From the NCBI GenBank assembly GCA_036786925.1, contig DAIQQI010000002.1, positions 1 to 34,576 on the forward strand: a stretch of DNA of 34,576 bases. The letters run 5' to 3'. Below the pieces are notes generated by a model. The model worked only from the letters and a program-made list of their open reading frames with translations. It was not told the DNA's origin and searched no databases. Of the stretch, positions 3,245-34,210 are shown piece by piece. The position numbers were made by a program, and so were the translations under genes. Numbering within the stretch: the first letter of the stretch is position 1; each line of letters starts with the position of its first letter. Source of the stretch: Steroidobacteraceae bacterium (lineage in GTDB: Bacteria; Pseudomonadota; Gammaproteobacteria; Steroidobacterales; Steroidobacteraceae).

Positions 3245-3253
3245 ACCGAAACT

Positions 3254-3281: not shown

Positions 3282-3358
3282 ACCTACTGGAATTCATCCT
3301 TGGTTCGTTGCCGCGCCCTCGAGGGCGCAGTCAATGTCGGTAACGCGTGAGGTGTGCC

Positions 3359-3844: not shown

Positions 3845-3869
3845 GGTGCCGTTAGGATCTGGAGGACTC

Positions 3870-4175: not shown

Positions 4176-4200
4176 CAGTTTTTTCGAAGAGAGAATCATC

Positions 4201-5151: not shown

Positions 5152-5163
5152 AGGAGCAATACG

Positions 5164-5682: not shown

Positions 5683-5696
5683 GAGATCCACTTGCC

Positions 5697-16174: not shown

Positions 16175-16205
16175 AATGGCCCGCTTCGGCGGGCCATTTG
16201 CTTTC
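16175..16205. terminator. Bidirectional intrinsic terminator between the bTHX gene and the KAS III gene
   Basis: AATGGCCCGC-TTCG-GCGGGCCATT forms a 10-bp stem (16175-16198), followed by TGCTTTC. It sits between convergent stop codons at 16152-16154 and 16204-16206. Confidence 0.7.
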
Positions 16206-17292: not shown

Positions 17293-17342
17293 CAACGCAG
17301 AATACCGGCAAAATGCCGCCCTCGGAACAAGGGAGCCTCTGA

Positions 17343-17909
17343 ATGTCCGCATGGATGCCGCAAATCGACCCCAGTTGGCAGGGTGTCACCGCCTTTTACG
17401 AGCTGATCTTTGGCACCTGGATCGCCTACGCGCTCCTGATCTGGATCTGGCAAGGCTGGCTCAAGACGCCGCTGCGCGAATGGCGCTACGCGATGATCAT
17501 CTTTCTCGCGGCGGGCGCGTTCTGGGTCAACCATTATTTTTCGGGCACCGCGCCCGCGGGTTCACCGCCCTCGCCGGGGCCTTTGTTGATCAGGCTCTAT
17601 GCGGTTTTCTTTTTGTTCTGCTACTGGCGCCTCGCGATCGGGCCGCAGCCCGGCAAGTCCCTGGTCTGGAAACTGTTCGCGCTGGCCACTGGTGTTGTGC
17701 TAACAGTTGGCTTCATTGCCGTCGAGCAGCTCGCGCGCTACGGCGTCGCGAACTGGGGCATGCACGAGTTCTGCTGGATGAGCATCGCCTTCCTCGGCTT
17801 TGTCTGGCTGATCCGCTGGCGCGGCAAGGCGCCCGTGCAACCCGAGCTCGGCAAGCTGGAGCCCTACCAGACCTACAAGTGGCACGGTCTCGGGTCGCCG
17901 CACGACTAG
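17343..17909 (+). CDS. Hypothetical multi-pass membrane protein
   Basis: 188 aa with about 5 hydrophobic helices. I recognise no family. It is divergent from the KAS III gene. Confidence 0.45.
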   Translation: MSAWMPQIDPSWQGVTAFYELIFGTWIAYALLIWIWQGWLKTPLREWRYAMIIFLAAGAFWVNHYFSGTAPAGSPPSPGPLLIRLYAVFFLFCYWRLAIGPQPGKSLVWKLFALATGVVLTVGFIAVEQLARYGVANWGMHEFCWMSIAFLGFVWLIRWRGKAPVQPELGKLEPYQTYKWHGLGSPHD

Positions 17910-19796: not shown

Positions 19797-21323
19797 TCAG
19801 GCGAGTTTTTCGAGTACCTCGAGCGAGACGCGCTCGGCGGACTCGAGCGCGCCTTCCATGCCGCGGCTGCCGATCGAGGTGTGCTCGCCGCAAAAATAAA
19901 GCTGCTTGTGCGGCTTGGCCATTTCATGCACGAAGGCAGTGACCTGGCCAGGTTGGAAAATCGCCCAGTCGCCGAGCGAGAAAGGATCGGCGCCCCAGGA
20001 CTGCACCGCCATCACGTCTAACAAACCTTTGGCTGCGGGCCGCATCTTCTCGAATTCCGCGACGATCTTCTTCTTGCCGCCCTCGAGACCGAGCTTGTCG
20101 ATGTCGATGGCTGCCTGGCCGCGACACCAGACAGCAAGGCTGGTGATTTCGTCGACTTCACCGAAGCGTTGCGCAAGGCACATGCCCATCGGGCCGTCGG
20201 TCCACATCGAGGCGCTGAGACCGTCGTCCTTCCAGAAGGGCTTCTTCGCGACGATATGAAACTGCGTGATCGGAATCGTACCTAACGTTGCGATCGCGGT
20301 TTTCTGGGCCGACGGCGGCGCAGGGTTGATGCGCACCTTGCGCAGCGTCGTATACGGCATTGACGACACCACGGCCTTGGCGCGCAGGCGCTTGCCGTCG
20401 GCGATTTGCACGACGGCGCCATCACCCGAGACATCGATGCCGGTCACACGCGTGCCCATCATCAGGCGTCCGGAAAGCTTGTTAGCCATCGCAATCGTCA
20501 GATTCTGATTGCCACCCTTGAACATGCCGACCACCAGTGGCGGCGGACCGCTCGGCGGTGCCGGAGGGCCTGCCGGCGGAGCGCCGGGCGCGCTCGGTCC
20601 GCCCGCGCTGCGCGAGAATGCCGACAGCGCGCCGCGATTCACCTGCTGCCAGTACTCGGCGAACATCACTGTCAGCAGCGAAACATCGCGCGAGGTGATG
20701 CCGTAGGCGATGTTAGCGTCGTAGCCGAGCTTGATCTGCGCGTCGCTCGCGCCCTGGCGCTTCAGGAAGTCATAAACCGAAATGTCCCACTCGGCATGTT
20801 TCGGGTCGGTCCAGTTCTCGATGTCCTTGAACGGGAAATTCTTGCGCAGCACGGCATCGCCCCAGGCCCAGGGCGGTAGTGCACGCTGTGCCTCGGCGAA
20901 CGGATTGTTCGGGTGACTGGGCCAGTCCTTGAGTGGCACGTGCTTGCCGTCGATATAGAGGCCCTGGGTCTCGCGATTGCTGAACAGGCGCTCAGTGAGG
21001 TTCACGACTTCAACGCCGTATTTCTGCCCGGCTGCGATCATGCGGCCATAGGCCGCGGCAATCGTGTTGCCGCCGGCTTCCGGGTGTCCGGGGATCTGCT
21101 TCAGCGTGTAGACGCGCCCGCCGACCCGCTGCCGGCCTTCGATGACGATGACCTTGAGGCCGTTTTCCTCGAGCGTCAGCGCGGTTTCAAGGCCCGAGAG
21201 ACCTGCGCCGATGACGATGACATCGGCATCCAGCGCGGACGCCGCACGGCCCACGCCGGGCAGGCTGCCGGCGGCGGCCAGGGCCGCGGACGAGGCGACA
21301 AATTTTCGGCGGGAGACGGTCAT
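19797..21323 (-). CDS. TAT-exported flavin-containing amine oxidase family protein
   Basis: ORF 19797..21380. ATG 21323 gives a twin-arginine signal (MTVSRRKFVASSAALAAAGSL). It has the FAD dinucleotide motif VIGAGLSGL...E.R.R.GGR and the C-terminal FCGEHTS. Confidence 0.8.
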   Translation of the reverse strand: MTVSRRKFVASSAALAAAGSLPGVGRAASALDADVIVIGAGLSGLETALTLEENGLKVIVIEGRQRVGGRVYTLKQIPGHPEAGGNTIAAAYGRMIAAGQKYGVEVVNLTERLFSNRETQGLYIDGKHVPLKDWPSHPNNPFAEAQRALPPWAWGDAVLRKNFPFKDIENWTDPKHAEWDISVYDFLKRQGASDAQIKLGYDANIAYGITSRDVSLLTVMFAEYWQQVNRGALSAFSRSAGGPSAPGAPPAGPPAPPSGPPPLVVGMFKGGNQNLTIAMANKLSGRLMMGTRVTGIDVSGDGAVVQIADGKRLRAKAVVSSMPYTTLRKVRINPAPPSAQKTAIATLGTIPITQFHIVAKKPFWKDDGLSASMWTDGPMGMCLAQRFGEVDEITSLAVWCRGQAAIDIDKLGLEGGKKKIVAEFEKMRPAAKGLLDVMAVQSWGADPFSLGDWAIFQPGQVTAFVHEMAKPHKQLYFCGEHTSIGSRGMEGALESAERVSLEVLEKLA

Positions 21324-21422
21324 GCGTGCGCTCCAGGTGGGTGTACTGCCGACGCTAGCGCGCCCGCCCGGCGGCTGCAACGTTTGTGGTGAGCAACGGG
21401 CGTCAGATGGCCAGCGGATGCA

Positions 21423-24554: not shown

Positions 24555-25820
24555 TTACCTGGCGCGTGCGCCCGAGTCTTTCATGGATTCGAGACGCGCA
24601 AGGTCAACGCCATCGACGACGCCTTTGATTTGCTCGAAGCTGGCAGCGTCGCCCTCCGCCTTGACGATGAAGCGGTCGGCGACAAAGACCTCATACTCGC
24701 CACGCTTGTTGGCGCTGTCCCATTTCTCATGGAACCAGCGGTTGCCCGCGCGCTTGGTTCTCTCGAAGCCCTTGTCCGTTTCCGATTCCTGTTCACCCAT
24801 CGTGACCGCCGCGCCGGCTAACGCCAGGAAGCCGGACGCGCCGCCGGTGTCGACCACCGACAGCTCGATGCGGTTGCCGTCACCGGCATCGTAGCTTGCC
24901 TCGCCCTTGCCGATCTGCATGCCCATCGTCTCGTTGCGATTAACGGACATTGTGGTGCGCTTCATGCCGCCAATGCTCTCCGGCAGGAACGACTTGAGGT
25001 CGTCGGTCGGCAGCGCATCGTGAGGCACCGTGCCGGCCTTGCTGGCCAGCGCACCTAACGCCGCACTGACAGCAGCGGTGCCCACTGCGGCGGCGGCGGC
25101 GCCGGCGCGCGCCGCATCGGCGCTGGAGCCACCCGCGTTTGCGGCTGCTTCCGCTGCTTCAGTGGCACGTTCGGCCGCTGCAGTTGCCGCTTCAGCGGCC
25201 GCCTCGACCTGCGCGGATGCCCGGCCCGCCAGTGAGCGACCGGCGATCATCCCCGCGAGCGACGACGTGATTGAGCTGATGATGAACATCAGGACAATGG
25301 TCAGGATGATGACGACGGCGGTAAAGCCCGCGGCCTTGTCGGCCGGTATCTTCAGCGTGTGCTGGCAGCCGAGATAGAAGAGATAGACGGCGTAAACCAC
25401 GCCGGCAATCGCGATCAGCCAGCCGATGACCGGCACGATCGCCGCGATGGACGCGACCCAGGACGCGGTCCATGAATAGGCAACCGTCTTCAGTGCCTGC
25501 AGCGAATCCTTGCTGCCGCCAAAATTAGGCGCGAGCGTGGCGGCGAGCCAGGCACTGACGAACACCGCGGCGAACGTCAGGACAAAACTCAGGACCGCGG
25601 ACACCAGAAAGAAATTTGATCCGAAGCCAAAAGCGTTTGAAATCGAACCAAGAAATGCCCAGGCCAGCCAGCCGGCGAGCGCCGAGACGGCGGCTAACAA
25701 CAGCACGTGTCCCTGGTAGATGCTCGCCGCCGGCGCCGGGTCCGCAGCGATCGCAGGCCATTCGACCTTGGGCGTCAGCAGGATGTTCTTGATGCGCTCA
25801 ACGATTTTCGCGATATTCAT
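24555..25820 (-). CDS. Yip1-domain membrane protein with Ala-rich linker and C-terminal soluble domain
   Basis: ORF 24555..25907. ATG 25820 has AGGGGA upstream. It has an N-terminal Yip1/DUF1282-like region with about 5 TM helices, then a low-complexity Ala/Glu segment of about 60 aa, then an unassigned domain of about 170 aa. It is the last gene of the minus-strand operon. Confidence 0.6.
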   Translation of the reverse strand: MNIAKIVERIKNILLTPKVEWPAIAADPAPAASIYQGHVLLLAAVSALAGWLAWAFLGSISNAFGFGSNFFLVSAVLSFVLTFAAVFVSAWLAATLAPNFGGSKDSLQALKTVAYSWTASWVASIAAIVPVIGWLIAIAGVVYAVYLFYLGCQHTLKIPADKAAGFTAVVIILTIVLMFIISSITSSLAGMIAGRSLAGRASAQVEAAAEAATAAAERATEAAEAAANAGGSSADAARAGAAAAAVGTAAVSAALGALASKAGTVPHDALPTDDLKSFLPESIGGMKRTTMSVNRNETMGMQIGKGEASYDAGDGNRIELSVVDTGGASGFLALAGAAVTMGEQESETDKGFERTKRAGNRWFHEKWDSANKRGEYEVFVADRFIVKAEGDAASFEQIKGVVDGVDLARLESMKDSGARAR

Positions 25821-25845
25821 GAGAATCCCCTGTTTGTTATTTATT

Positions 25846-26907
25846 TCAGCGGCTGGCCGCCAGCCTGGCAGTTTCTTCCTGTATACGCTGTTCGAGCAGC
25901 TTTGCAAACGCGGGGTGCTCGGAAACCCCCTTTTCCTGGAACCGGTACTTGAGACCTAACAAATCTTGCTTGAGCTTGGCCTGCAGGCCGAAACTCGCGA
26001 TCACCGCAGGCACGACCAGGACATCGTAACCGCGTGCCTGGGCGTCGGTGATCATCTTGCGCAGCTTGCGGACATTGGCTGCGCGGATCGGCTTGAACGC
26101 GTCATCCTGCAGGTTGATCGCCTGCACCTCGGCAAAGCCGCCCTGGGCTTTCACTTTCACTGCGTGCGCATTGAGAAAGGCGAGATCGGGCACGTTGTCT
26201 TCGTAGTCCTCGGGACCATGCGCAACGATCATCACCGCTTCGCGTGCCGGATTTTTCGACAGCTCCCGCGCGTGATCCAGCAGCATCTGCGTAAACAGCG
26301 GGCTGTCATCAAACGTATGCGCCATGACCAGCTTGAGCTTGGTCCTGACCTTGGGCACCGACAGATACTCCGCCGCGGTGGGCCAGCCGAAGATGTACTC
26401 CCACTGGCGATAAATCGTGTTGTATTTCGAGACCAGCGGCGGCACGAGAATGATGGTCTTCGCGCCGGCCTTGGTCAGGTCGTCGACCGCCGACTGCAGC
26501 GGCTCCGAATGCGTCATCGCCATGCCGATACCGATGCTGGTCGGATACTTCGCGCCGATGGGCTCTACGGCGCGCTTGAAGATGCGGTCGCCGGTTTCGC
26601 CAACGCCGTGGGTCAGCACCAGCACGCCGACATTGCCGCGCAGTTGCGGGGCGCTGACGTTCCACTGGTAGTCCGGCCCCATGCCGCCCATGCTCATGTG
26701 AATTTCCATGTCGGTCATGGCGCGGTACTGAGGAATTGCCTTCTTGAGCGCGGCGATCAGTTCCGGCGTCATGTCGGCGTGGCTGTGCGCCATGATCATC
26801 TTGCGGCCGTCAGGCGTGCTGCCGCCGGCCGGCGGCGCGGGTGCGGCGCCTGCGGTTGCGGTCATCAACAGCACGATAGCTAACAAAAAAATCGTTACAG
26901 TCTTCAC
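25846..26907 (-). CDS. Signal-peptide-bearing double CbiX/CbiK-like (class II chelatase fold) protein
   Basis: 353 aa with a GTG start at 26907, overlapping the ATPase stop (GTGA). The signal peptide is MKTVTIFLLAIVLLMTATAGA. It has two chelatase-like halves, each with a beta-strand-HG motif (VLVLTHGVGE and VMIVAHGPED). Confidence 0.5.
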   Translation of the reverse strand: MKTVTIFLLAIVLLMTATAGAAPAPPAGGSTPDGRKMIMAHSHADMTPELIAALKKAIPQYRAMTDMEIHMSMGGMGPDYQWNVSAPQLRGNVGVLVLTHGVGETGDRIFKRAVEPIGAKYPTSIGIGMAMTHSEPLQSAVDDLTKAGAKTIILVPPLVSKYNTIYRQWEYIFGWPTAAEYLSVPKVRTKLKLVMAHTFDDSPLFTQMLLDHARELSKNPAREAVMIVAHGPEDYEDNVPDLAFLNAHAVKVKAQGGFAEVQAINLQDDAFKPIRAANVRKLRKMITDAQARGYDVLVVPAVIASFGLQAKLKQDLLGLKYRFQEKGVSEHPAFAKLLEQRIQEETARLAASR

Positions 26908-27590
26908 GTGGGCGCTCCTTCACTGACAACCCGGCCATCGACCAGCTTCACGACCCGGTCCACGACCGACACCATGCTGGCGTCATGCGTCACCATCACC
27001 GTGGCGACCTTGTGCGCGTGGCACTGCTGCGCCAGCAGCTCGACGATTTCGCGGCCGCGCCCCTGGTCCAGCATCGAGGTGGGCTCGTCCACCAGCAGCA
27101 GCGCCGGGTTGCCCATCAGCGCGCGGGCAATGCCGACACGCTGGCGCTCGCCACCCGACAGCTGTGCCGGCTTGCGAGTGGCGCGGTTCTCCATGCCAAC
27201 CTCGGCTAACAGACGCAGCGCCTCAGTGCGCGCCTTGCCGTGCGTGCCTTCGCCGTTCAGGTGCGCTACCAGCAGCAGCTGGTCGAGCGCGGTCAGCGAC
27301 GGCACGAGGTTCGACTGCTGAAACACGAAGCCGATGCGTTGCCGGCGGATCCGCGCCAGCTCGGAGTCGCTCAGATCGCCGAGGTTCACGCCACCCACGG
27401 TGACGCTGCCACTGCTGGCGCGCCGCAACCCGCCGCAGATCGCCAGCAGGCTCGACTTGCCGGCGCCGGACGGCCCCATGATCGCGACCATTTCGCCGGC
27501 CGAGACGTGGATATTCACGTTGTTGAGTATCGTCGCCTGTGCCTCGCCGTCGCCTAACAACAGCGAGATGTTCTGCGCCGCGAGCGTCAT
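26904..27590 (-). CDS. ABC transporter ATP-binding protein (MacB/LolD/FtsE type)
   Basis: ORF 26904..28172, but the real start is ATG 27590, which overlaps the permease stop (ATGA). It has Walker A (GPSGAGKSS), the signature LSGGERQR, and Walker B (LLLVDEPT). Confidence 0.9.
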   Translation of the reverse strand: MTLAAQNISLLLGDGEAQATILNNVNIHVSAGEMVAIMGPSGAGKSSLLAICGGLRRASSGSVTVGGVNLGDLSDSELARIRRQRIGFVFQQSNLVPSLTALDQLLLVAHLNGEGTHGKARTEALRLLAEVGMENRATRKPAQLSGGERQRVGIARALMGNPALLLVDEPTSMLDQGRGREIVELLAQQCHAHKVATVMVTHDASMVSVVDRVVKLVDGRVVSEGAPT

Positions 27591-28723
27591 CGGTCTCTCC
27601 CGAGCGCGATGATCGGCTCGATCTTGACGATGCGCCGCAGCGCGAACATCGCGCCGGCCAGGCCGGCGCCGATCAGCAGCAGCGAGCTGCCGACGACATT
27701 GCCGGTCGTGAGCTCGAACACCGAGCCGCGCGCCTCGAATGCGCTGGTGGTCCCGAAGGCCGCGAGCACGCCGATCCCGGTTGCGAACACCAGCACCAGC
27801 AGGACCTGGCTGAGCGCATCCCTGACCAGGTAGCCGTTGTCGGCGCCGAGCGCCTTGACCAGCCCGATCTCGGCGGTGCGCTGGATGGTCCAGATGGAAA
27901 AGAACGCACCTAACACGACTACGCAGGTCGCGATCAGGAAGAATTGCATCAGCCGCACGGTGAAGATTTCCGCGCTGTAGCCCGAGGTGCCGTCGTAGGA
28001 CTGCTCCTTGGTCATGGTCTTCGTGCCGATCTCCCGGTCGTGCGCCTTGATATCGACGCTGGCGTCCGGGTCGATCGCCAGCGCAATCGTGGTGGCGGCG
28101 GTGAAGATCGCCTCCGGCAGCGTATCGCCCGGCGGCGCGCCACCGGGGGGGCCGTAATTGGCCTCCTGCCATTTGCGCAACGGGACATAGGCGACGGGCG
28201 CGTGGCTGACCGCGACAGCCTCGGTGATGCCCACGACCTTGAACTCTGTCAGCACGCGATCGATCGTGATCGTGTCGCCGATCTTGACGTGCTTGTCCAG
28301 CGCGATCTTGCGTGAGATGACCATCGCGTTGGGCGCGGCCGAGAGGCCCTGGCCTTCAACAACCCTGGGTTCCGCAAATGAGCCTGGCACGACCCCCCAG
28401 AACGCGATATCGACCGGCGCGCCCTGCGCATCACGCGCATTCGCCAGCGAGTGGCCGATCGGCGTTGCCTTGACGCCGGGCACACCCGCCCATTTTTCCC
28501 AGGTCTCCTTGTCCAGCATGCTGTTCTGGTAGTCGGGCCGCGTGGAGTTCTCGAACGCCATGTGGGTCGCGGGCAGCTGCTGCAGCGCGGACACGCAGTC
28601 CTTGATGAGGCCGAATATCAGGCCGCCTAACACGACCACCAGGAACGCCACCAGTGTGACCACCAGGGCCATCAGGCCGAAGCGGCCCTTGGCATGCAGC
28701 ATGTCGCGCCACGCAAGGAACAT
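27587..28723 (-). CDS. ABC transporter permease, FtsX/MacB-like
   Basis: 378 aa. It has TM1, a periplasmic domain of about 200 aa, and three C-terminal TM helices (the FtsX domain layout). Its start overlaps the upstream stop by 1 nt (TGATG). Confidence 0.85.
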   Translation of the reverse strand: MFLAWRDMLHAKGRFGLMALVVTLVAFLVVVLGGLIFGLIKDCVSALQQLPATHMAFENSTRPDYQNSMLDKETWEKWAGVPGVKATPIGHSLANARDAQGAPVDIAFWGVVPGSFAEPRVVEGQGLSAAPNAMVISRKIALDKHVKIGDTITIDRVLTEFKVVGITEAVAVSHAPVAYVPLRKWQEANYGPPGGAPPGDTLPEAIFTAATTIALAIDPDASVDIKAHDREIGTKTMTKEQSYDGTSGYSAEIFTVRLMQFFLIATCVVVLGAFFSIWTIQRTAEIGLVKALGADNGYLVRDALSQVLLVLVFATGIGVLAAFGTTSAFEARGSVFELTTGNVVGSSLLLIGAGLAGAMFALRRIVKIEPIIALGRDR

Positions 28724-29466
28724 CAGAATTTCTCCAGCACAGAGCCGCAGCCCTGGATCTTGTCCGGGATTCCTGAGCGCCGCAAGGCGTCCCAGTAGGT
28801 AATGGCATTGATAGCTAACACCGGTTTGCCGAACCAGAGTTCGGCCTCTGCGGCGAGCCGTATTGCAGCGAGGTTGGTGCCCACCTGGACCAGCGCGTCG
28901 ACATCATCGCCGTTCAGCGCGCGCAGCGCGTCGATGACCTGCTGCTCGGTGGTATGCGCGATCAGCGTTGGCGAGGCGCACTTGAGGCCGGTCAGGCGCT
29001 TGACCGCGAATCCCGCTTCTTCGAAGTAGGTGCGCACCTGTTCATCGCCGCGCGGCTGGTGCGGCGTCAGCACCGCGATGCGCGTGGCGCCCAGCAGCTT
29101 GAGCGCCGCGCGCGTCGCAGTGGAACCCATGGAGATGCCGACGCCGGCGCGTTCTGTCAGCTCCTTCTGCAATTCGTCGGCGGCCTTGGCGCCGCCCCAG
29201 AACGCCTCGAGCGCCACGCCCATGATCACGTGCGTGGGCTGACAGGTCACGATCTGGTCGATGCCTGCGCGCATGCCATCGCGCATCAGCTGCACATGTT
29301 CCATGAAAGCCTGCTCGGTGGTGAGCGGACGTTCCCTGATGGTGATGCGCCCGGTGTGATTGGTGACGCCCCGGGGGCGCAGCATTTCGCATTCCGGCTG
29401 GCACGAGGTGTTGGTCGACGGCACGACGATGGCGATGCGAGCGCGATATCCGAGTTGATCAGTCAT
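28723..29466 (-). CDS. Asp/Glu/hydantoin racemase superfamily protein (maleate isomerase / arylmalonate decarboxylase-like)
   Basis: 247 aa. It has the N-terminal IAIVVPSTNT block and VAVLTP-type and DALV....N blocks typical of the family. By hand alignment, both positions that hold the catalytic Cys in maleate isomerase are non-Cys here. Its start overlaps the SDR stop (ATGA). Confidence 0.65.
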   Translation of the reverse strand: MTDQLGYRARIAIVVPSTNTSCQPECEMLRPRGVTNHTGRITIRERPLTTEQAFMEHVQLMRDGMRAGIDQIVTCQPTHVIMGVALEAFWGGAKAADELQKELTERAGVGISMGSTATRAALKLLGATRIAVLTPHQPRGDEQVRTYFEEAGFAVKRLTGLKCASPTLIAHTTEQQVIDALRALNGDDVDALVQVGTNLAAIRLAAEAELWFGKPVLAINAITYWDALRRSGIPDKIQGCGSVLEKF

Positions 29467-30251
29467 GGCGTCTTGACGCTGCCTCCGTCCAGTGTGATCG
29501 AGGTGCCGGTGGTGTGGCCGGCGAGTTCCGATGCCAGGAACAACACCTGCGCCGCCACCTGTTCGGCGCTGCCCAGTTTGCGCAGCGCAGATTTCGCGAG
29601 AAACGGCGCCTCGACATCAGCCACGGTACGCTTCTCCTGCGCAGCGATGTCAGCCATCTGCTGGTCCCAGCGGCTCGAGCGGACCGGTCCGGGGTTCACG
29701 GCGTTGATGCAAATCCCCTGCGGCCCCACTTCCTCCGCCAGTCCACGCACGATGGCTAACAAGGCCGAATTCGCCGCCGCCCCCGGCAGCATCCTGGGCT
29801 CCGGCAATTTCGCCGAGTTGCCGACGATCACCACAATGCGCCCGGCGCGACGCGCCTGCATGCCGGGCAGCGCAGCCCGCAGCAGCCGAATCGTTCCGAA
29901 CAACTTCAATTCGAGATTACGCTTCCAGTCGGCGTCGGATAAGTCCGTAAAAATACCGCCCTGTGCATTGCCGGCTGCGCACACCAGCACATCGATGGGT
30001 CCGCCTTGTCGCACGGCGCCGGCAATCGCCGCATCGGTGCTGGCCGCGTCGGTCAGGTCAGATTGAATGCCGTCGACGACCTGGCCGCCGGCGCTGGTCA
30101 GTTCGCGCACCAGCGCCGCGAGTTTTTCCAGCGACCGGCCTAACAAACTGAGGCGCGCGCCTTCGGTCGCGAACGCGCGGGCGCAGGCTGCGCCCAGGCC
30201 GCCGGTCGCGCCGGCGATCAGCACATGCCGGTCGCGTAATTTAAGATCCAT
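29463..30251 (-). CDS. SDR family oxidoreductase
   Basis: ORF 29463..30353. ATG 30251 has AAGGAG upstream. It has the cofactor motif GATGGLG, an NAG motif, and a classical SDR length of 262 aa. Confidence 0.85.
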   Translation of the reverse strand: MDLKLRDRHVLIAGATGGLGAACARAFATEGARLSLLGRSLEKLAALVRELTSAGGQVVDGIQSDLTDAASTDAAIAGAVRQGGPIDVLVCAAGNAQGGIFTDLSDADWKRNLELKLFGTIRLLRAALPGMQARRAGRIVVIVGNSAKLPEPRMLPGAAANSALLAIVRGLAEEVGPQGICINAVNPGPVRSSRWDQQMADIAAQEKRTVADVEAPFLAKSALRKLGSAEQVAAQVLFLASELAGHTTGTSITLDGGSVKTP

Positions 30252-30265
30252 GCTCAGGGGCTCCT

Positions 30266-31279
30266 TCAGCGGCTGCGGGCGAGGGCGGCGCCGGCGCCTA
30301 ACGCGCGCAGCTTGGCGCGCGCCAGGTCGGCGGGCAGCGGCGCCATGCCGCAATTGGTACAGGGTACAAGTCTTTCACGATCCACGTGTTTGAGCGCGGC
30401 GCCGATATTGGCCGCAACCTCGGCCGCGGTTTCCAGCTTTCCCGGCAGGACTTCGACCGCGCCGACCAGCAGCTCCTTGTCTTTCAGCAGCCGCAGCACC
30501 TCATGCGGCACTTTGGAGCCGGCGAACTCGACCGATACCGCCTGCACGCTGCTCGCGTTGATCCAGGGAAAAATGGCCTCGTATTGCCGCCAGCTGTCGC
30601 CCAGGGTGCTCTTCCACTTGATGTTAGCTTCGATGCCGTAGCCGTAGCAGATATGCACGACCGTCTTCGCCTTCAGGCCGCGCATCGCGCGCTCCAGCGC
30701 CGGCAGGCCCCAGTCGCGCACCTCGTCGATGAAAACGTTGAAGGCCGGTTCGTCGAACTGGATCACGTCCGCGCCCGCGGCCTCGATCTGCAGCGCTTCC
30801 TGGTTGAGCAGCTCCGCAAACTTCATGGCCATGTCGGCGCGCGAGCTGTAGTAACTGTTAGCAATCGTGTCGCAGATCGTCATCGGGCCGGGCAGGGTGA
30901 TCTTCAGTTGCCGCGCTGTCTGTGCCCGCATATAGGCGGCATCGGCGACGTGCACCGGCGACGGGCGTGCCAGCGCGGCAACCACCGTGGGCACTTCCGC
31001 CTCGTAACGGTTGTTGCGAATGCCCATGCGCGTCTTGCGGTTCCAGTCGATGCCCTGGATGTTCTCGAGGAAACCGTGCACGAAGTGCACGCGAAACTGC
31101 TCGCCATCGCCCACGATGTCGATCCCGGCGGCTTCCTGTTCGCGCAGCCACTCGAGTGCGGCTCGTTGCTTGCCCTGCTGCAACGCGTCGCCGGCGAGAC
31201 GCCAGGGCGCCCAGATCTTTTCGGGCTCGGCCAGCCAGTCCGGTTTTGGAAGGCTGCCGACGGTGGTGGTTTTGAGCAC
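30266..31279 (-). CDS. Single-barrel cobalamin-independent methionine synthase family protein ('core' MetE-like)
   Basis: 337 aa with a GTG start at 31279. TTTVGSLPKP, GDGEQ.R, DEPA, HICYG and NCGM are blocks of the MetE C-terminal barrel type, including the Zn-ligand contexts. It is the first gene of the operon. Confidence 0.75.
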   Translation of the reverse strand: MLKTTTVGSLPKPDWLAEPEKIWAPWRLAGDALQQGKQRAALEWLREQEAAGIDIVGDGEQFRVHFVHGFLENIQGIDWNRKTRMGIRNNRYEAEVPTVVAALARPSPVHVADAAYMRAQTARQLKITLPGPMTICDTIANSYYSSRADMAMKFAELLNQEALQIEAAGADVIQFDEPAFNVFIDEVRDWGLPALERAMRGLKAKTVVHICYGYGIEANIKWKSTLGDSWRQYEAIFPWINASSVQAVSVEFAGSKVPHEVLRLLKDKELLVGAVEVLPGKLETAAEVAANIGAALKHVDRERLVPCTNCGMAPLPADLARAKLRALGAGAALARSR

Positions 31280-31431
31280 GCAATACGATCCGGTGAGCGA
31301 CGCGAACAGCGAACGCGAATCGTAAACGACTGGGGCGGAGGTACCCGACCGCAGCTTGGTTGGCAGAGAGAGGATTGGTTGGGCGCCGCCCGGGAGTCCG
31401 TTCCCGAAGTCAGCGCGTCATCAGGCCATCC

Positions 31432-31458
31432 GTGGCCAAGTGGCCGGTCCTTGGCCAC
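31432..31458. promoter_or_regulatory. Perfect 9-bp inverted repeat GTGGCCAAG-N9-CTTGGCCAC at the start of the operon leader
   Basis: Read directly from the sequence. It lies just downstream of the predicted operon promoter. It could be a 5' RNA stem-loop or a protein operator. Confidence 0.4.
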
Positions 31459-31468
31459 CTGTGGGTGA

Positions 31469-31497
31469 ATATTTAGCCAGCCGACTTGCATTGTCAA
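31469..31497 (-). promoter_or_regulatory. Candidate sigma70-type promoter of the metE-like operon
   Basis: On the minus strand there is a perfect TTGACA (31497-31492), then 16-17 nt, then the A/T-rich TAAATAT (31475-31469). This implies a leader of about 180 nt before GTG 31279. Confidence 0.4.
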
Positions 31498-31515
31498 GCT
31501 TTTGTACAGTATAAA
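31486..31515 (+). promoter_or_regulatory. Candidate promoter of the carH-like gene
   Basis: TTGCAT (31486-31491), 18 nt, TATAAA (31510-31515). It lies in the only strongly AT-rich stretch of the intergenic region. Confidence 0.3.
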
Positions 31516-31535
31516 ACTAAATATAAGGTGTACAA
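31502..31535. promoter_or_regulatory. Inverted repeat TTGTACA-N20-TGTACAA (candidate operator)
   Basis: Two perfect 7-bp arms at 31502-31508 and 31529-31535. They overlap the carH-like promoter and RBS, immediately upstream of the operon -35. Confidence 0.35.
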
Positions 31536-31536
31536 C

Positions 31537-32436
31537 ATGGCTGAATTTTCGATAAAGGCCACCGCCAAGGCGACTGGCCTGACCGTCGAGACCCTCAGGG
31601 CCTGGGAACGGCGTTACGAGGCCGTACTGCCCAGTCGTGATGTCGCGGGCAGGCGCGGCTACTCGTCTGCTGACATCGCGCGCCTGCGGTTGCTGCGGTC
31701 CGCAACCGAGTTGGGGCACCCCATTTCGAAGGTCGCAAAGATGCCGCCGGATGAATTGGCGAAGCTGGTCAGCGATGCCGGAGGTTTGGCGCGGATTACC
31801 GCGCGCGGTCAGAGCTTCGTGCAACGCGCGCTCGATGCCGCGGAGCACTCGGATTCGATCGGCGTCGAAGAGACACTGATGTCGGCGATGGCAGTGCTGC
31901 CGCCGCACGAAGTAGCGGGCAGCGTGATCACTCCGCTGCTGATCGAAGTTGGCGATCGCTGGCACCGCGGCCAGTTGCGTATCTCCCAGGAACACATGGT
32001 CACCGACATCGTACGGCGCCTGGTGACCAATGCGTCGCGCAGCTATTTCATCGCGGAAAACGCGCCTTGCCTGATGCTGACGACCTTGAGCGGCGAGCGT
32101 CACGAGCTGGGGCTCATGCTGTGCCTGTGGCTTGCTGCAGCGCGCCGCTGCCGTACCCATTACCTCGGCCCGGACACCCCCGTGCCTGACATCGTGGAGT
32201 ACGCGCGTGACGTCGAGGCGGACGCGGTTCTGCTGTCGATGGTCATGTCCGAGATGGACGTCCCGGCCAGGACGCAGCTCGGCCTGCTGGCCGCGCAATT
32301 GCAGCCGAATACCGAGATCTGGGTTGGCGGTCGGGCCGCGCAGACCATGCGCGAAGACCAGGTGCCGCTGGGCGTGGTCTTGCTGCCGTCGCTAACAGAC
32401 TACGAGCAGCGGCTCGACACGCTTATGGTTAAGTAG
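31537..32436 (+). CDS. CarH/LitR-type MerR family regulator with cobalamin-binding domain
   Basis: ORF 31486..32436. ATG 31537 has AAGGTG upstream. It has an N-terminal MerR HTH (ATAKATGLTVETLRAWERRY). The helical cap carries Wx9EH (W-HRGQLRISQ-EH). The Rossmann B12 domain has GERHELG (ExHxxG), LLSMV (SxL) and VGG. Confidence 0.75.
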   Translation: MAEFSIKATAKATGLTVETLRAWERRYEAVLPSRDVAGRRGYSSADIARLRLLRSATELGHPISKVAKMPPDELAKLVSDAGGLARITARGQSFVQRALDAAEHSDSIGVEETLMSAMAVLPPHEVAGSVITPLLIEVGDRWHRGQLRISQEHMVTDIVRRLVTNASRSYFIAENAPCLMLTTLSGERHELGLMLCLWLAAARRCRTHYLGPDTPVPDIVEYARDVEADAVLLSMVMSEMDVPARTQLGLLAAQLQPNTEIWVGGRAAQTMREDQVPLGVVLLPSLTDYEQRLDTLMVK

Positions 32437-32512
32437 CGCGCGTCAACCGACAACGCGCTCGCGCGTTTCCCTGATAGCGGTAGAATCGGGCTGCCGCTCA
32501 GGGAGGCGACCT

Positions 32513-34210
32513 ATGGCACGCAGCAGCAAGATTGCGCAACTCGCAATAGCCGGATTTTTGGCCTTGGTCGCCGGTTGTGGCGGCGGTGGCGGCGCGAGTT
32601 CGCCACCACCCCCGGTACCGCCGCCGCCGATCAGCAAGATCGAGGCGTATCGTTTTCTCAATCAGGCCACTTTCGGCGCAACCGAAGCCGAGGCCCAGCG
32701 CCTGATCGCGTTAGGTGACAGCACCAACAGCTACTCGCGCTGGCTGGACGAACAATTCGCCAAGGCGCCTTCGACCCAGTTGCCGACCGTAGCCGCAGCG
32801 GTACCCAACCCGATTCCGGTCGGCTTCAATATCGGCTCGCTGCAGGCGCAACGGGTCGAGGCCTGGTTCCAGAATTCCCTGAATGGCGACGACCAGTTGC
32901 GCCAGCGCGTGGCCTTCGCGCTGTCCGAGATCATGGTTGTGTCGCAGGTCGGTGCGCTGGCGAATTTCCCGTTGTCGCTGGCTGATTATTACGACATGTT
33001 AGCGCGCGACGCCTTCGGCGATTATCGCAAGCTGCTCGAAGACGTGACGCTGCACGTGTCGATGGGCATTTATCTGTCGATGCTGGGCAACCAGAAGCCG
33101 AATCCGACGCTCAATATCCGGCCCGACGAAAACTACGCGCGCGAACTGATGCAGCTGTTCAGTATCGGCCTGGTCGAACTCAACACCGACGGCACGCCGC
33201 GCCTCGTGAACAGCCAGGCGGTTTCAACCTATGACCAGTCGATCATCGAAGGCTTTGCTAACGTGTACACGGGCTGGCGCTACGCCGGTGGCACATCGTT
33301 CGCCAATGCGGGGCGCGCCACGTTGACCAACCAGGTGCAGCCGATGCAGGCCTACGCGGAGCAGCACTCCACCGGTACCAAGAAGCTGTTGAGTTACGCC
33401 GGCGCCGCGGTGACGACAATTCCTGCGGGGCAGACGCCGGCCCAGGATCTGGCCAATGCGCTCGACAACATCTTCAATCACCCCAATGTCGGGCCGTTCA
33501 TCTCGAAACAGCTGATCCAGAAACTGGTGACCAGCAATCCAAGCCCGGCGTACGTCGCACGCGTTGCCGCCGTCGTCAACAGCGACAGCCAGGGCCGCCG
33601 CGGCAACCTGCAATCGGTCATCCGCGCCATTTTGCTGGATAGCGACGCGCGCTCGGCGCCAACTGCGCAGACCGCGGGTAAGATCAAGGAGCCGCTGCTG
33701 CGGCTGACCCAGCTGTGGCGCGCCTACGGCGCGCGCGCCGCGAGCGGCAAATATACGGCTGCGGCGACCGGCGGTCCGTCGGCGACGTTCGCGCAGGGGC
33801 CGCTGCAATCCGGCTCCGTGTTCAATTTCTTCAGTCCGTTTTATGCGCCCACCGGCGAGATTGCCAACCAGAACCTGGTCGCGCCCGAGATGCAGCTGGC
33901 GACTGAGTACAACAACACGCAGTTCATCAATTTCTTCTGGGTGCAGGCTATCGCCCGCACCACGGCGCAGACCGGCCTGGGAGCGGATGTGGTGGTCATC
34001 GACACCACGCAGGAACAGGCGGTCGCCAATGATTCCGAAGCCCTGGTGAACCGGGTCGCGGAAAAATTGTTAGGCGGGCAGATATCCGCTGAACTGAAAG
34101 CAAGCGTCAAGACCCAGGTCGATCGGACCGCGACCACCGTGCCTAACACCCGGGTGGCCGACGCGATATACCTGATCTCTACAGCGCCTGAATTCGTGCT
34201 GCAGCGCTAA
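32513..34210 (+). CDS. DUF1800 domain lipoprotein
   Basis: 565 aa. GGAGG lies upstream. It has a lipobox (LVAGCGG) and a Pro-rich linker. The FLNQATFG and NENYARELMELFT-like (NYARELMQLFSIG) blocks are typical of DUF1800. Confidence 0.8.
   Translation: MARSSKIAQLAIAGFLALVAGCGGGGGASSPPPPVPPPPISKIEAYRFLNQATFGATEAEAQRLIALGDSTNSYSRWLDEQFAKAPSTQLPTVAAAVPNPIPVGFNIGSLQAQRVEAWFQNSLNGDDQLRQRVAFALSEIMVVSQVGALANFPLSLADYYDMLARDAFGDYRKLLEDVTLHVSMGIYLSMLGNQKPNPTLNIRPDENYARELMQLFSIGLVELNTDGTPRLVNSQAVSTYDQSIIEGFANVYTGWRYAGGTSFANAGRATLTNQVQPMQAYAEQHSTGTKKLLSYAGAAVTTIPAGQTPAQDLANALDNIFNHPNVGPFISKQLIQKLVTSNPSPAYVARVAAVVNSDSQGRRGNLQSVIRAILLDSDARSAPTAQTAGKIKEPLLRLTQLWRAYGARAASGKYTAAATGGPSATFAQGPLQSGSVFNFFSPFYAPTGEIANQNLVAPEMQLATEYNNTQFINFFWVQAIARTTAQTGLGADVVVIDTTQEQAVANDSEALVNRVAEKLLGGQISAELKASVKTQVDRTATTVPNTRVADAIYLISTAPEFVLQR

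What the first reader, a model, noticed from the sequence alone, without database searches (positions are those of the whole stretch)
31537..32436. CarH/LitR-type light- and AdoCbl-sensing regulator, not linked to carotenoid or photolyase genes
The protein combines three parts:
- a MerR-type HTH
- a helical cap carrying an exact Wx9EH motif (W-HRGQLRISQ-EH)
- a Rossmann B12-binding domain with ExHxxG (GERHELG), SxL and GG

These are the residues that define photoreceptor-competent CarH/LitR class proteins, in which the His is the lower axial ligand and the W/E/H residues contact the 5'-deoxyadenosyl group.

Known CarH/LitR regulons are typically carotenoid, photolyase or related photoprotection genes. 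Here the only adjacent divergent target is an operon headed by a cobalamin-related methyltransferase-fold gene.
Basis: partly seen in the sequence, partly recalled or inferred. Interest (0 to 1): 0.7.

Follow-up and report, generated by a model that had tools for sequence, protein, structure and literature searches.

The report
B12-and-light repressor beside B12-independent methionine synthase
This gene encodes an ordinary member of the widespread CarH family of vitamin-B12-based light sensors, and its one unusual feature is that it sits head-to-head with a B12-independent methionine synthase operon instead of pigment genes.

Summary
ORF 31537-32436 (+), 299 aa, from a Steroidobacteraceae (Gammaproteobacteria) genome, has three domains: MerR_1, B12-binding_2 and B12-binding. 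All three score above Pfam cut-offs.

All CarH signature motifs are present. They align residue for residue with Thermus CarH, and an AlphaFold model finds CarH as its top 50 PDB matches.

The family is large: 931 clusters (50% identity) match at E<=1e-30. This is a new member of a known kind.

The new information concerns context:
- **Divergent gene:** 30266-31279 (-) is not "cobalamin-related". It is a MesD-type core methionine synthase, independent of B12 and folate, 55% identical to canonical MesD. Its obligate partner MesX is missing, and an SDR and an arylmalonate-decarboxylase-fold gene follow instead.
- **Synteny:** the arrangement is conserved in 47 of 56 informative related loci.
- **Intergenic region:** it holds a phylogenetically conserved array of TnnACA hexamers, the CarH operator unit. 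The array overlaps a TTGACA -35 box that points toward the synthase operon.

Best reading: AdoCbl-CarH represses this operon and itself in the dark. Light or B12 shortage derepresses both. This would be a protein analogue of the cobalamin riboswitch that controls mesX-mesD in Agrobacterium. Binding and regulation are inferred, not shown.

The parts
31537..32436 (+). carH-like gene (299 aa): MerR HTH + four-helix bundle + Rossmann B12-binding domain
   Evidence: Pfam; phmmer to TtCarH 5c8d/3whp E 1e-28; AF2 model plus Foldseek, top 50 matches all TtCarH; 100% identical database protein P0001
31546..31743 (+). MerR-type winged-helix DNA-binding domain (residues 4-69), with the recognition-helix motif RAWERRY (residues 21-27)
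   Evidence: Pfam MerR_1, 52.5 bits; motif located; RxWERRY is described as the conserved CarH/CarA recognition motif in PMC9304148
31960..31995 (+). Wx9EH motif (W142...E152 H153) in the four-helix bundle. In TtCarH it caps the 5'-deoxyadenosyl group
   Evidence: Exact alignment to TtCarH WHRGEIGVAEEH; invariant in 25 homologues
32095..32331 (+). Classic B12-binding motif E187xH189xxG192-x41-S234xV236-x27-G264G265. H189 is the predicted lower axial ligand
   Evidence: Regular-expression match; GERHELG aligns to TtCarH GERHEIG; Pfam B12-binding, residues 180-279
31492..31534 (.). Predicted CarH operator, an array of TnnACA-type hexamers: TTGACA on the - strand (31492-31497), TGTACA (31503-31508), pseudo-repeat TAAATA (31518-31523) and TGTACA (31529-31534)
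   Evidence: Positions +0, +11, +26 and +37 carry TnnACA in 95-98% of 55 unique upstream regions of the 55-70% identity clade, while the flanks are unconserved. TGTCAA-N5-TGTACA is unique in the window, 0.05 expected. CarH operators are tandem 11-bp repeats nnnnTnnACAn overlapping -35 (PMC9304148)
31468..31497 (-). Sigma-70-like promoter pointing at the MesD-like operon: -35 TTGACA (31497-31492), 18-nt spacer, -10 AATATT (31473-31468). The -35 box lies inside the operator array
   Evidence: Promoter scan, 10 of 12 matches, the only hit in 31200-32600; TTGACA conserved in 95% of related loci
31486..31515 (+). Candidate promoter of carH itself: TTGCAT-18 nt-TATAAA. It overlaps the operator, so autoregulation is expected
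   Evidence: Read from the sequence and conserved in L001, L003 and L004. It did not pass the scan's criteria, so this is weak
31280..31462 (-). About 180-nt leader of the MesD-like gene. It has three hairpins with GGA in the loop and a fourth GGA at the ribosome-binding site. No riboswitch was found
   Evidence: Rfam: nothing at gathering score or at E<10 except a 13-bit chance hit; RNAalifold on 5 relatives keeps the three hairpins, 3 compensatory pairs
30266..31279 (-). MesD-type core methionine synthase (337 aa; B12- and folate-independent family), first gene of the divergent operon
   Evidence: Pfam Meth_synt_2; NCBIfam NF006589 'methionine synthase', 494 bits against a cut-off of 392; PDB 3RPD (MesD of Shewanella), E 1.4e-119 over the full length; 55% identity and 394-395 bits to MesX-linked MesD of Vibrio and Acidovorax
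29463..30251 (-). Short-chain dehydrogenase/reductase. It starts 15 nt after the MesD-like stop codon
   Evidence: Pfam adh_short / adh_short_C2; synteny in 46 loci
28723..29466 (-). Arylmalonate-decarboxylase / Asp-Glu-racemase-fold protein. Its start overlaps the SDR stop codon
   Evidence: Pfam Amdase, 56.9 bits; NCBIfam EutA and arylmalonate decarboxylase hits below cut-off; synteny
24555..28723 (-). Tightly packed downstream genes found only in the window's own clade: FtsX/MacB permease (27587-28723), ABC ATPase (26904-27590), secreted class II chelatase-fold protein (25846-26907) and a Yip1 membrane protein (24555-25820/25907)
   Evidence: Pfam; present in L001, L004 and L009 only; the FtsX-ABC-chelatase-fold trio is a separate module with its own TetR gene in a Chromatiales MAG; AF2 plus Foldseek to SirB, CbiK and DR2241
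32513..34210 (+). DUF1800 gene 77 nt downstream of carH. It is a conserved neighbour; co-transcription is uncertain
   Evidence: Pfam DUF1800, E 1.5e-80; downstream of carH in 48 of 61 loci of the >=55% clade; separated from carH by a riboswitch-TonB receptor insertion in L023 and L027

Best explanation
The gene encodes a genuine CarH / class I LitR-type repressor that uses adenosylcobalamin (AdoCbl) as its chromophore.

Proposed mechanism:
1. In the dark, with AdoCbl bound (His189 below the cobalt, Trp142/Glu152/His153 capping the adenosyl group), the protein oligomerises.
2. Its MerR-type heads occupy the array of TnnACA hexamers at 31492-31534.
3. That array covers the TTGACA -35 box of the leftward promoter (31497-31468) and the protein's own promoter. 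The divergent operon and carH itself are therefore both repressed. The operon comprises the MesD-type B12-independent methionine synthase, the SDR and the decarboxylase-fold protein. In this clade an ABC transporter, a chelatase-fold protein and Yip1 follow as well.
4. Light breaks the Co-C bond, or B12 is simply absent. The oligomer then falls apart and both promoters fire.

The most economical physiological reading is B12 sparing. The cell makes a B12-independent methionine synthase when usable coenzyme B12 is missing or is being photolysed. This is the logic that cobalamin riboswitches impose on metE and on mesX-mesD elsewhere.

What is shown: domain architecture, motifs, fold, conserved synteny, and the conserved operator-like and promoter-like DNA.
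What is inferred: AdoCbl binding, light response, oligomeric state, which promoters are controlled, and the physiological purpose.
For: Protein:
- Three Pfam domains score above cut-off.
- Residue-exact alignment of Wx9EH and ExHxxG with TtCarH.
- Full classic B12 motif with correct spacing, plus RxWERRY and GxxW/EH/GxxH/GxxxP.
- The motifs are invariant in homologues.
- AF2 pLDDT 86.9, and all top 50 Foldseek matches are TtCarH.

DNA:
- TnnACA hexamers at +11, +26, +37 (and +48) on the + strand, and at 0 and +11 on the - strand, occur in 95-98% of 55 unique related upstream regions, with unconserved flanks.
- The same TGTCAA-N5-TGTACA core persists upstream of homologues only 41-48% identical.
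- The motif is unique in the window.
- The TTGACA is also the -35 box of the only promoter-like site found there, and it faces the MesD-like gene. TtCarH and MxCarH operators likewise include the -35 box (PMC9304148).

Synteny:
- MesD-like, SDR and Amdase-fold genes lie divergent from carH in 47 of 56 informative loci of the >=55% clade.
- The window clade has no fasciclin gene (present in 52 other loci), yet it keeps the promoter-operator block. That block now abuts the MesD-like gene.

B12 logic:
- Canonical mesX-mesD in Agrobacterium sits behind a cobalamin riboswitch of 135.6 bits.
- B12 represses the MesX gene 300-fold in A. baumannii (PMC12892962).
- Two related loci carry a cobalamin riboswitch plus a TonB receptor directly after carH, so these bacteria import B12.
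Against: - No experiment supports any step.
- The operator is not a canonical run of three or four contiguous 11-bp repeats. The hexamers come in pairs offset by 15 bp. In the window itself only two perfect TGTACA, one pseudo-repeat and the opposite-strand TTGACA are present. A search for three tandem TnnACA repeats with one mismatch finds nothing.
- TtCarH tetramer-interface glycines G160 and G192 align with Tyr170 and Arg204 (alignment), so the oligomeric state may differ.
- The protein scores 122.7 bits against a cut-off of 400 for NCBIfam's CarH equivalog model.
- In most relatives the first gene after the divergent promoter is a fasciclin-domain gene, not the synthase. Nine informative loci have no MesD-like gene next to carH. 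The synthase may therefore be a passenger.
- The MesD-like protein lacks its required partner MesX, so its being a methionine synthase is itself unproven.
- Whether the genome has MetH is unknown.
Confidence: 0.6

Rival explanations
1. The molecular mechanism is the same (AdoCbl-CarH repressor released by light), but the output is a light or photo-oxidative-stress or surface-behaviour response, not B12 sparing. The primary target would be the secreted fasciclin-domain protein found in most relatives. The MesD-like, SDR and decarboxylase-fold genes would be co-transcribed passengers, or would serve to replace or repair oxidation-sensitive functions.
For: - The fasciclin gene is the immediate divergent neighbour of carH in 52 of 80 loci, including loci that lack the MesD-like gene (L005, L058-L061).
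- All characterised CarH/LitR regulons are light-protective (PMC9304148, PMC9758184).
- Related MAGs come from lakes and glacier-fed streams, which are sunlit habitats (record titles).
Against: - The window's own clade has no fasciclin gene yet keeps carH, the operator and the promoter in front of the MesD-like operon.
- No photolyase, carotenoid, cfa or folE genes occur in the window.
- No known role of fasciclin proteins in light protection (own knowledge).
Confidence: 0.2
2. The protein is autoregulatory only, or controls distant genes. The divergent MesD-like operon has its own independent control, and its adjacency to carH reflects vertical inheritance of gene order within one family, not co-regulation.
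For: - Homologues at 41-48% identity keep the TGTCAA-N5-TGTACA element but are monocistronic, lying between a GGDEF-EAL gene and a convergent Mla-type transporter.
- All 47 syntenic loci come from one family (Steroidobacteraceae and relatives), so they are not independent events.
- The leader of the MesD-like gene carries its own putative post-transcriptional control elements, the GGA hairpins.
- L002 has a 76-bp deletion that removes the predicted -10 box.
Against: - The operator array includes the -35 TTGACA that faces the operon, and this box is 95% conserved.
- No other promoter-like site was found between it and the MesD-like start codon.
- Divergent target plus autoregulated carH is the architecture described for Thermus (own knowledge, and PMC9304148 for divergent crt-carH pairs).
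Confidence: 0.12
3. The protein is a B12-independent CarA-like repressor, or a corrinoid sensor that uses a form other than AdoCbl, so that light is irrelevant.
For: - Tetramer-interface glycines are not conserved.
- The NCBIfam CarH score is far below cut-off.
- Only 88 of 148 full-length family representatives keep both motifs, so loss of function is common in the family.
Against: - CarA lacks the Trp of Wx9EH (PMC9304148). Here Wx9EH, the following His, the axial His and all four 'light-responsive' signature elements are intact. They are invariant across the clade.
- Any protein-bound AdoCbl is intrinsically photolabile (established B12 chemistry; PMC8156234).
Confidence: 0.06

Closest known systems
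Thermus thermophilus CarH (LitR), PDB 5C8D/5C8E/5C8A
   Same: - Same three-part architecture.
- WH-x8-EH and GERHExG align exactly; about 28% identity over the full length.
- RxWERRY recognition helix.
- Salt-bridge pair Arg(ExRH)/Asp(GPDTP) present (read from the alignment).
- Operator built from TnnACA hexamers that include a TTGACA -35 box.
- carH is divergent from its target.
   Different: - Target genes: Thermus has crtB and a photoprotection cluster; here a MesD-type synthase operon.
- The hexamers are arranged as pairs offset by 15 bp and in both orientations, not as three contiguous 11-bp repeats.
- Interface residues G160 and G192 are Tyr and Arg here.
- The host is a gammaproteobacterium.
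Myxococcus/Cystobacter CarH and Bacillus megaterium CarH
   Same: AdoCbl-dependent repressors defined by Wx9EH plus the classic B12 motif. Their operators mix true repeats (DR) and pseudo-repeats (dr) that overlap -35 or -10 (PMC9304148). The window's TAAATA pseudo-repeat fits that pattern.
   Different: They regulate carotenoid operons. Cystobacter CarH is a dimer that binds as two dimers, which may be the better model for the 2+2 hexamer layout here. That is untested.
Cobalamin riboswitch upstream of metE or of mesX-mesD
   Same: Same proposed input-output logic: coenzyme B12 present means the B12-independent methionine synthase is off. Shown here for Agrobacterium tumefaciens pAspH13-3a, where RF00174 (135.6 bits) lies directly upstream of the DUF1852 and MesD genes.
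   Different: RNA versus protein sensor. A riboswitch is not released by light once transcription has occurred, whereas CarH adds a light input. No riboswitch is present in the window.
MesD/MesX folate- and B12-independent methionine synthase (Price et al. 2021, PMC7857596; PDB 3RPD)
   Same: The neighbour gene is 55-58% identical over its full length to MesD. It retains the HxC...C zinc-site residues and the MesD-type region around ICYGYG.
   Different: No MesX (DUF1852) occurs in the window or in any of 80 related loci. An SDR and an arylmalonate-decarboxylase-fold protein follow instead.
PhrR of Halomonas and other Proteobacteria (Romine et al., PNAS 2017), recalled from memory because the paper is not in the held library
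   Same: A MerR plus B12-binding light-dependent regulator in Gammaproteobacteria whose predicted regulon is not carotenoid-centred (photolyase, folate and ubiquinone genes, as I recall).
   Different: As far as I recall, a methionine synthase gene is not in the PhrR regulon. I could not verify this, nor compare sequences or binding motifs.

Membership tests
CarH / class I LitR (AdoCbl-based photoreceptor repressors) | N-terminal MerR-type winged-helix DNA-binding domain with the RxWERRY recognition helix | tested here: met
   Pfam MerR_1, 52.5 bits; RAWERRY at residues 21-27; invariant in 25 homologues
CarH / class I LitR (AdoCbl-based photoreceptor repressors) | Four-helix bundle carrying an intact Wx9EH motif | tested here: met
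   Pfam B12-binding_2, 40 bits; W142-x9-E152-H153 aligns with TtCarH W131/E141/H142; invariant
CarH / class I LitR (AdoCbl-based photoreceptor repressors) | Rossmann module with D/ExHxxG-x41-SxT/V-x22-27-GG | tested here: met
   ERHELG-x41-SMV-x27-GG from residue 187; Pfam B12-binding, 40.1 bits
CarH / class I LitR (AdoCbl-based photoreceptor repressors) | Fold superposes on solved CarH | tested here: met
   AF2 pLDDT 86.9; Foldseek top 50 matches all TtCarH; cobalamin-binding domain rmsd about 2.9 A, TM(target) about 0.8. The full-length rmsd of 10-14 A reflects the flexible placement of the DNA-binding domain.
CarH / class I LitR (AdoCbl-based photoreceptor repressors) | Binds AdoCbl; oligomer and DNA binding are lost on illumination | not testable with these tools
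   Needs purified protein: UV-visible spectra, SEC-MALS, and EMSA in dark versus light
CarH / class I LitR (AdoCbl-based photoreceptor repressors) | Operator of tandem 11-bp direct repeats nnnnTnnACAn overlapping a promoter element | tested here: inconclusive
   TnnACA hexamers are conserved at 11-bp spacing and overlap the TTGACA -35 box. However, they come as pairs offset by 15 bp, and no run of three tandem repeats exists in the window.
CarH / class I LitR (AdoCbl-based photoreceptor repressors) | Reaches NCBIfam's CarH equivalog cut-off (NF052513) | tested here: not met
   122.7 bits against a cut-off of 400, although it is the best-scoring family and covers residues 5-286. This is a naming threshold, not a mechanistic feature.
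CarA (B12-independent CarH paralogue) | Lacks the Trp and flanking residues of Wx9EH | tested here: not met
   Trp142 and the whole motif are present, so it is not filed as CarA
Class II LitR (Pseudomonas type) | Keeps only the four-helix bundle; no Rossmann B12 domain | tested here: not met
   The Rossmann B12-binding domain is present; class definitions come from PMC9758184
MesD core methionine synthase (the divergent neighbour) | Catalytic Meth_synt_2 domain only, at least about 55% identity / about 390 bits to MesD | tested here: met
   394-395 bits and 55% identity to MesX-linked MesD of Vibrio and Acidovorax; 3RPD E 1.4e-119. Price et al. set their threshold against ACIAD3523, which I could not test.
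MesD core methionine synthase (the divergent neighbour) | Encoded next to MesX (DUF1852), which it requires | tested here: not met
   tblastn with two MesX proteins finds nothing in the window or in 80 related loci. I therefore call it 'MesD-type', not a proven MesD/MesX system.
Cobalamin riboswitch control of the operon | RF00174 aptamer in the leader | tested here: not met
   No Rfam hit at gathering score in the window, nor at E<10 in 31150-31650

The most novel reading that the evidence does not exclude
In Steroidobacteraceae a CarH photoreceptor may have been recruited as a protein-based coenzyme-B12 sensor for methionine synthesis. It would switch on a MesX-less, MesD-type B12-independent methionine synthase module when AdoCbl is lacking or is being destroyed by sunlight. 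This would be a light-gated protein counterpart of the cobalamin riboswitch-metE circuit. As a corollary, the SDR and the arylmalonate-decarboxylase-fold enzyme would replace MesX as the still-unknown source of the methyl group.
Probability: 0.25. Interest if true: 0.65.

Novelty: new member of a known kind. Interest (0 to 1): 0.4.

Why it matters
The protein itself adds little, because CarH-type B12 photoreceptors are a large, well-described family.

If the proposed wiring is right, it would be the first case I know of in which a B12 photoreceptor controls a B12-independent isoenzyme. It would link light-driven loss of coenzyme B12 in sunlit fresh waters to the choice of methionine synthase. 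That is relevant to B12 economy in lake and stream communities.

It would also give a handle on the unsolved question of where MesD-type synthases get their methyl group. This clade couples MesD to an SDR and a decarboxylase-fold enzyme instead of MesX.

For tool builders, the family offers a gammaproteobacterial CarH-operator pair with a different repeat geometry.

Tried and rejected
1. **Cobalamin or other riboswitch in the 257-bp intergenic region.** None was found at the Rfam gathering score or at E<10.
2. **Hidden carotenoid or photolyase genes in the window.** All large ORFs were scanned. The Amino_oxidase protein at 19797-21380 looked like a possible CrtI, but it matches CrtI/CrtD/HpnE models only over the N-terminal FAD motif.
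3. **MesX (DUF1852) nearby.** Absent from the window and from 80 related loci.
4. **Clues to the operon's chemistry from homologues of the decarboxylase-fold protein on plasmids.** These are at most 50% identical and sit in unrelated catabolic contexts, so they are uninformative.
5. **The secreted 353-aa protein as a direct corrinoid link.** It has a class II chelatase fold (SirB/CbiK/DR2241). However, with the FtsX and ABC genes it forms a module that has its own TetR regulator in another order, and it is present only in the window's own clade. It is therefore not evidence about the CarH regulon.
6. **Riboswitch upstream of mesX-mesD in general.** Absent in the Acidovorax, Vibrio and A. baumannii plasmid loci and present in Agrobacterium. 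The B12 logic is real but not universal.
7. **Literature on PhrR (Romine et al. 2017).** The paper is not held, so the comparison rests on memory.
8. **A search for three tandem TnnACA repeats in the window.** No hit, so the operator cannot be called canonical.
9. **Whether the window's leader is the remnant of the fasciclin-MesD spacer of relatives.** The DNA alignment is too poor to decide.
Full report
**1. The observation**

The window has about 63% G+C. The ORF listing reports an ORF at 31486-32436 on the + strand, starting from a TTG.

The ATG at 31537 gives a 299-aa product. It is 100% identical to a database protein, P0001, and it aligns from its first residues with 24 homologues.

Pfam finds three domains, all above the curated cut-offs:
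- MerR_1 (residues 4-69, 52.5 bits)
- B12-binding_2 (residues 96-163, 40.0 bits)
- B12-binding (residues 180-279, 40.1 bits)

A regular-expression check locates these motifs:
- W142-HRGQLRISQ-E152-H153
- E187-R-H189-E-L-G192, then 41 residues, S234-M-V236, then 27 residues, G264-G265
- RAWERRY at residues 21-27
- the GxxW, GxxH and GxxxP elements that PMC11796333 lists as signatures of light-responsive cobalamin domains

The spacing matches the classic motif D/ExHx2G-x41-SxT/V-x22-27-GG as quoted in PMC9304148.

Wx9EH and ExHxxG are invariant columns in 25 homologues down to 57% identity. Both occur in 119 of 120 close homologues.

**2. What the protein is**

*Sequence.* phmmer against PDB sequences gives Thermus thermophilus CarH/LitR as the best hits (3whp and 5c8d, E about 1e-28). 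The printed alignment puts WHRGQLRISQEH on WHRGEIGVAEEH and GERHELG on GERHEIG.

*Structure.* An AlphaFold2 model built on the 25-sequence alignment is confident (mean pLDDT 86.9). Its 50 best Foldseek matches in the PDB are all T. thermophilus CarH entries. The cobalamin-binding domain superposes at about 2.9 A, with a target-normalised TM-score of about 0.8.

[quoted passage not shown] By that criterion this is a CarH homologue, or a class I LitR in the scheme summarised in PMC9758184. It is not CarA, which lacks the Trp. It is not a class II LitR, which lacks the Rossmann domain.

*Family size.* An exhaustive HMMER search of 1.84 billion cluster representatives finds 931 clusters at E<=1e-30 and 5263 at E<=1e-10.

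Two points argue for caution:
- NCBIfam's CarH equivalog model scores 122.7 bits against a cut-off of 400.
- The two glycines at the TtCarH dimer-dimer interface (G160, G192) correspond, by counting along the alignment, to Tyr170 and Arg204. The oligomer need not be a Thermus-like tetramer. PMC9304148 describes a Cystobacter CarH that is an AdoCbl-dependent dimer binding as two dimers.

**3. The organism**

Homologues and related loci come almost entirely from Steroidobacteraceae, Acidibacter and Nevskiaceae-labelled MAGs of lakes, rivers and glacier-fed streams.

**4. The neighbourhood**

*The operon in the window.* On the minus strand, seven tightly packed genes run from 31279 to 24555. Start and stop codons overlap or lie at most 26 nt apart, as read.

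| Coordinates | Assignment |
|---|---|
| 30266-31279 | Meth_synt_2 protein |
| 29463-30251 | SDR |
| 28723-29466 | arylmalonate-decarboxylase-fold protein |
| 27587-28723 | FtsX/MacB permease |
| 26904-27590 | ABC ATPase |
| 25846-26907 | secreted 353-aa protein without a Pfam match |
| 24555-25907 | Yip1 protein |

*The first gene is not a cobalamin enzyme.*
- It reaches NCBIfam NF006589 'methionine synthase' (494 bits, cut-off 392).
- It matches PDB 3RPD at E 1.4e-119 over its whole length. Price et al. (PMC7857596) identify 3RPD as MesD of Shewanella.
- It is 55% identical (394-395 bits) to MesD proteins of Vibrio and Acidovorax that are annotated next to DUF1852.

*MesD without MesX.* MesD is the folate- and B12-independent 'core' methionine synthase of aerobic bacteria, and it needs MesX (DUF1852) and oxygen (PMC7857596). 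Here no MesX homologue exists in the window or in any of 80 related loci. The SDR and the decarboxylase-fold gene follow instead.

*Synteny across 80 genome loci retrieved with the CarH alignment.*
- 61 loci are at least 55% identical to the window protein.
- 47 of these carry MesD-like, SDR and decarboxylase-fold genes divergent from carH.
- Five are cut too short upstream to tell.
- Nine lack the MesD-like gene.
- 48 of the 61 have DUF1800 downstream.

*An extra gene in most relatives.* A 162-aa secreted fasciclin-domain protein lies between carH and the MesD-like gene. It is the immediate divergent neighbour in 52 loci, including some without the MesD-like gene. The window's own clade (window, L001-L004, L009) has no fasciclin gene, so the MesD-like gene directly follows the shared control region.

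*Other arrangements.*
- Three loci have an amine oxidase, a FabH-like gene and an MFS gene on the divergent side.
- Homologues at 41-48% identity are monocistronic, between a GGDEF-EAL gene and a convergent Mla-type transporter.

**5. The control region**

*Riboswitch.* None is present.

*Promoter.* The promoter scan finds one sigma-70-like site in 31200-32600, and it lies on the minus strand: TTGACA (31497-31492), 18 nt, AATATT (31473-31468).

*Conserved block.* I aligned the upstream regions of all loci on the TGTCAA. This shows one sharply conserved block in otherwise divergent sequence.

In 55 unique sequences of the 55-70% clade, taking the T of TGTCAA as offset 0:

| Strand | Offset | Loci with TnnACA |
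|---|---|---|
| + | +11 | 96% |
| + | +26 | 96% |
| + | +37 | 95% |
| + | +48 | 62% |
| - | 0 (the TTGACA) | 95% |
| - | +11 (palindromic TGTACA) | 98% |

*In the window.* The elements are TTGACA (31492-97, - strand), TGTACA (31503-08), a degenerate TAAATA (31518-23) and TGTACA (31529-34). The last ends two bases before the carH start codon. TGTCAA-N5-TGTACA occurs once in the window, against 0.05 expected. The same core survives upstream of the 41-48% homologues.

*Comparison with known operators.* CarH operators are tandem 11-bp direct repeats nnnnTnnACAn. There are three in Thermus and four in B. megaterium, with pseudo-repeats tolerated, and they overlap the -35 or -10 element. In M. xanthus the -35 TTGACA lies within a repeat (PMC9304148).

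The hexamer, the 11-bp register and the overlap with a TTGACA -35 box therefore fit. The 15-bp step in the middle and the mixed orientation do not. No run of three tandem repeats is found in the window, even allowing one mismatch. I treat the operator as probable but non-canonical.

*carH's own promoter.* It is probably TTGCAT-18-TATAAA (31486-31515), inside the array. It did not pass the scan's rules, so this is weak.

**6. Mechanism and physiological reading**

*Steps shown:* architecture, motifs, fold, synteny, and a conserved operator-like array overlapping a conserved promoter that faces the MesD-like operon.

*Steps inferred from the CarH paradigm (PMC8156234, PMC9304148):*
- AdoCbl binding
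- dark-state oligomer on the array
- repression of both divergent promoters
- release by light, or in the absence of B12

*The B12-sparing reading.* It rests on four observations:
- The first regulated gene in this clade belongs to a B12-independent methionine synthase family.
- Elsewhere the same family is shut off by B12. I found a cobalamin riboswitch (RF00174, 135.6 bits) directly upstream of DUF1852-MesD on an Agrobacterium plasmid.
- B12 lowers the A. baumannii DUF1852 transcript by log2 8.3 (PMC12892962).
- Two related loci (L023, L027) carry a cobalamin riboswitch plus a TonB-dependent receptor immediately after carH, so these bacteria take up B12.

*Against it:*
- The fasciclin gene, not the synthase, is the most conserved partner.
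- The enzyme lacks MesX.
- The riboswitch is absent from three other mesX-mesD loci I checked.
- I do not know whether the genome has MetH.

**7. Comparison with what is known, and novelty**

The protein is a new member of a known, very large kind. I found no paper in the held library that links CarH/LitR to a methionine synthase gene.

From memory, PhrR of Halomonas is a B12-binding, light-dependent MerR regulator with a non-carotenoid regulon. A carotenoid-free context is therefore not unprecedented. I could not obtain that paper.

Two things would be new if confirmed: a CarH regulon centred on a MesD-type synthase, and a MesD subfamily that works without MesX.

**8. Verdict**

| Item | Result |
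|---|---|
| Observation | confirmed |
| Family assignment | supported |
| Regulatory link to the divergent operon | likely (about 0.6) |
| B12-sparing purpose | plausible (about 0.25-0.3) |
| Interest | 0.4 |

The sensor is an ordinary example. The wiring is a suggestive, testable hypothesis that rests on synteny within one bacterial family.

Noticed in passing
window 31370-31462 (- strand), and 31283-31300: The leader of the MesD-like gene folds into three hairpins, each with GGA in the loop: GGCC-AAGGACC-GGCC, GGCC-ACGGAU-GGCC and CGGGA-ACGGAC-UCCCG. A fourth GGA sits at the ribosome-binding site. All three hairpins are kept in 5 relatives, with 3 compensatory pairs. This resembles CsrA/RsmA binding sites (own knowledge). 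No Rfam family matches. Similar CCGGACAUGGAUGUCCGG hairpins lie between the fasciclin and MesD-like genes in the 60% clade.
   Followed up: partly
window 30266-31279 with 29463-30251 and 28723-29466 (- strand): This is a MesD-type methionine synthase (55% identical to MesX-linked MesD) with no MesX anywhere nearby. In 46-47 loci it is followed by an SDR and an arylmalonate-decarboxylase-fold protein. It may be a MesX-independent variant of the MesD system, whose methyl donor is unknown.
   Followed up: partly
window 25846-26907 (- strand): A secreted 353-aa protein has no Pfam match. Its confident AF2 model (pLDDT 89.8) matches class II tetrapyrrole chelatases: SirB, periplasmic CbiK, DR2241 and HemH. 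With the FtsX and ABC genes upstream it forms a module that has its own TetR gene in a Chromatiales MAG. It may be a periplasmic tetrapyrrole-binding partner of a MacB-type transporter.
   Followed up: partly
L011 5344-5832 (- strand) and 51 other loci; absent from the window: A fasciclin-domain secreted protein gene is the gene most often divergent from carH (52 of 80 loci). It is missing from the window's own clade, which keeps the promoter-operator block.
   Followed up: partly
L023 6949-9189 and L027 3888-4132: In two relatives, a cobalamin riboswitch (80.5 and 97.8 bits) followed by a 615-aa TonB-dependent receptor and a 182-aa membrane protein lies between carH and DUF1800.
   Followed up: partly
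L002 2336-2516: One close relative (87% identical CarH) has a 76-bp deletion in the intergenic region. It removes the predicted -10 box and the first two GGA hairpins but keeps TTGACA and the hexamers. Either the real promoter lies elsewhere or this strain has lost control of the operon.
   Followed up: no
Upstream regions of L007, L011, L012, L020 and others (about 90-120 nt before carH): A conserved palindromic hairpin, GCGTAC-N11-GTACGC, lies in the 5' UTR of the fasciclin gene, just before its ribosome-binding site. Its function is unknown.
   Followed up: no
L046, L054 and L061, about 1200-5900 (- strand); window 19797-21380 and 16204-17352: In three relatives the divergent side of carH carries a Tat-signal amine oxidase, a FabH-like ketosynthase and an MFS transporter. 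Proteins of the same two enzyme families are encoded 10-15 kb away in the window (direct homology was not tested).
   Followed up: no
L062-L075 (for example L063 5998-6885): A sister clade of CarH homologues (41-48% identity) is monocistronic. It lies after a GGDEF-EAL gene and faces a convergent MlaE/MlaF/MlaD/lipoprotein cluster. It still carries TGTCAA-N5-TGTACA upstream, preceded by a terminator-like hairpin.
   Followed up: no
55-70% clade, offsets +37 to +53 from TGTCAA (for example L011 about 5950-5975): The last two TGAACA hexamers both read ATGAACA. One is the carH start codon. The other opens a 4-codon mini-ORF (ATG AAC AAA TCA TGA) that overlaps it. This may be operator sequence doubling as a start region, or a tiny upstream ORF.
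   Followed up: no
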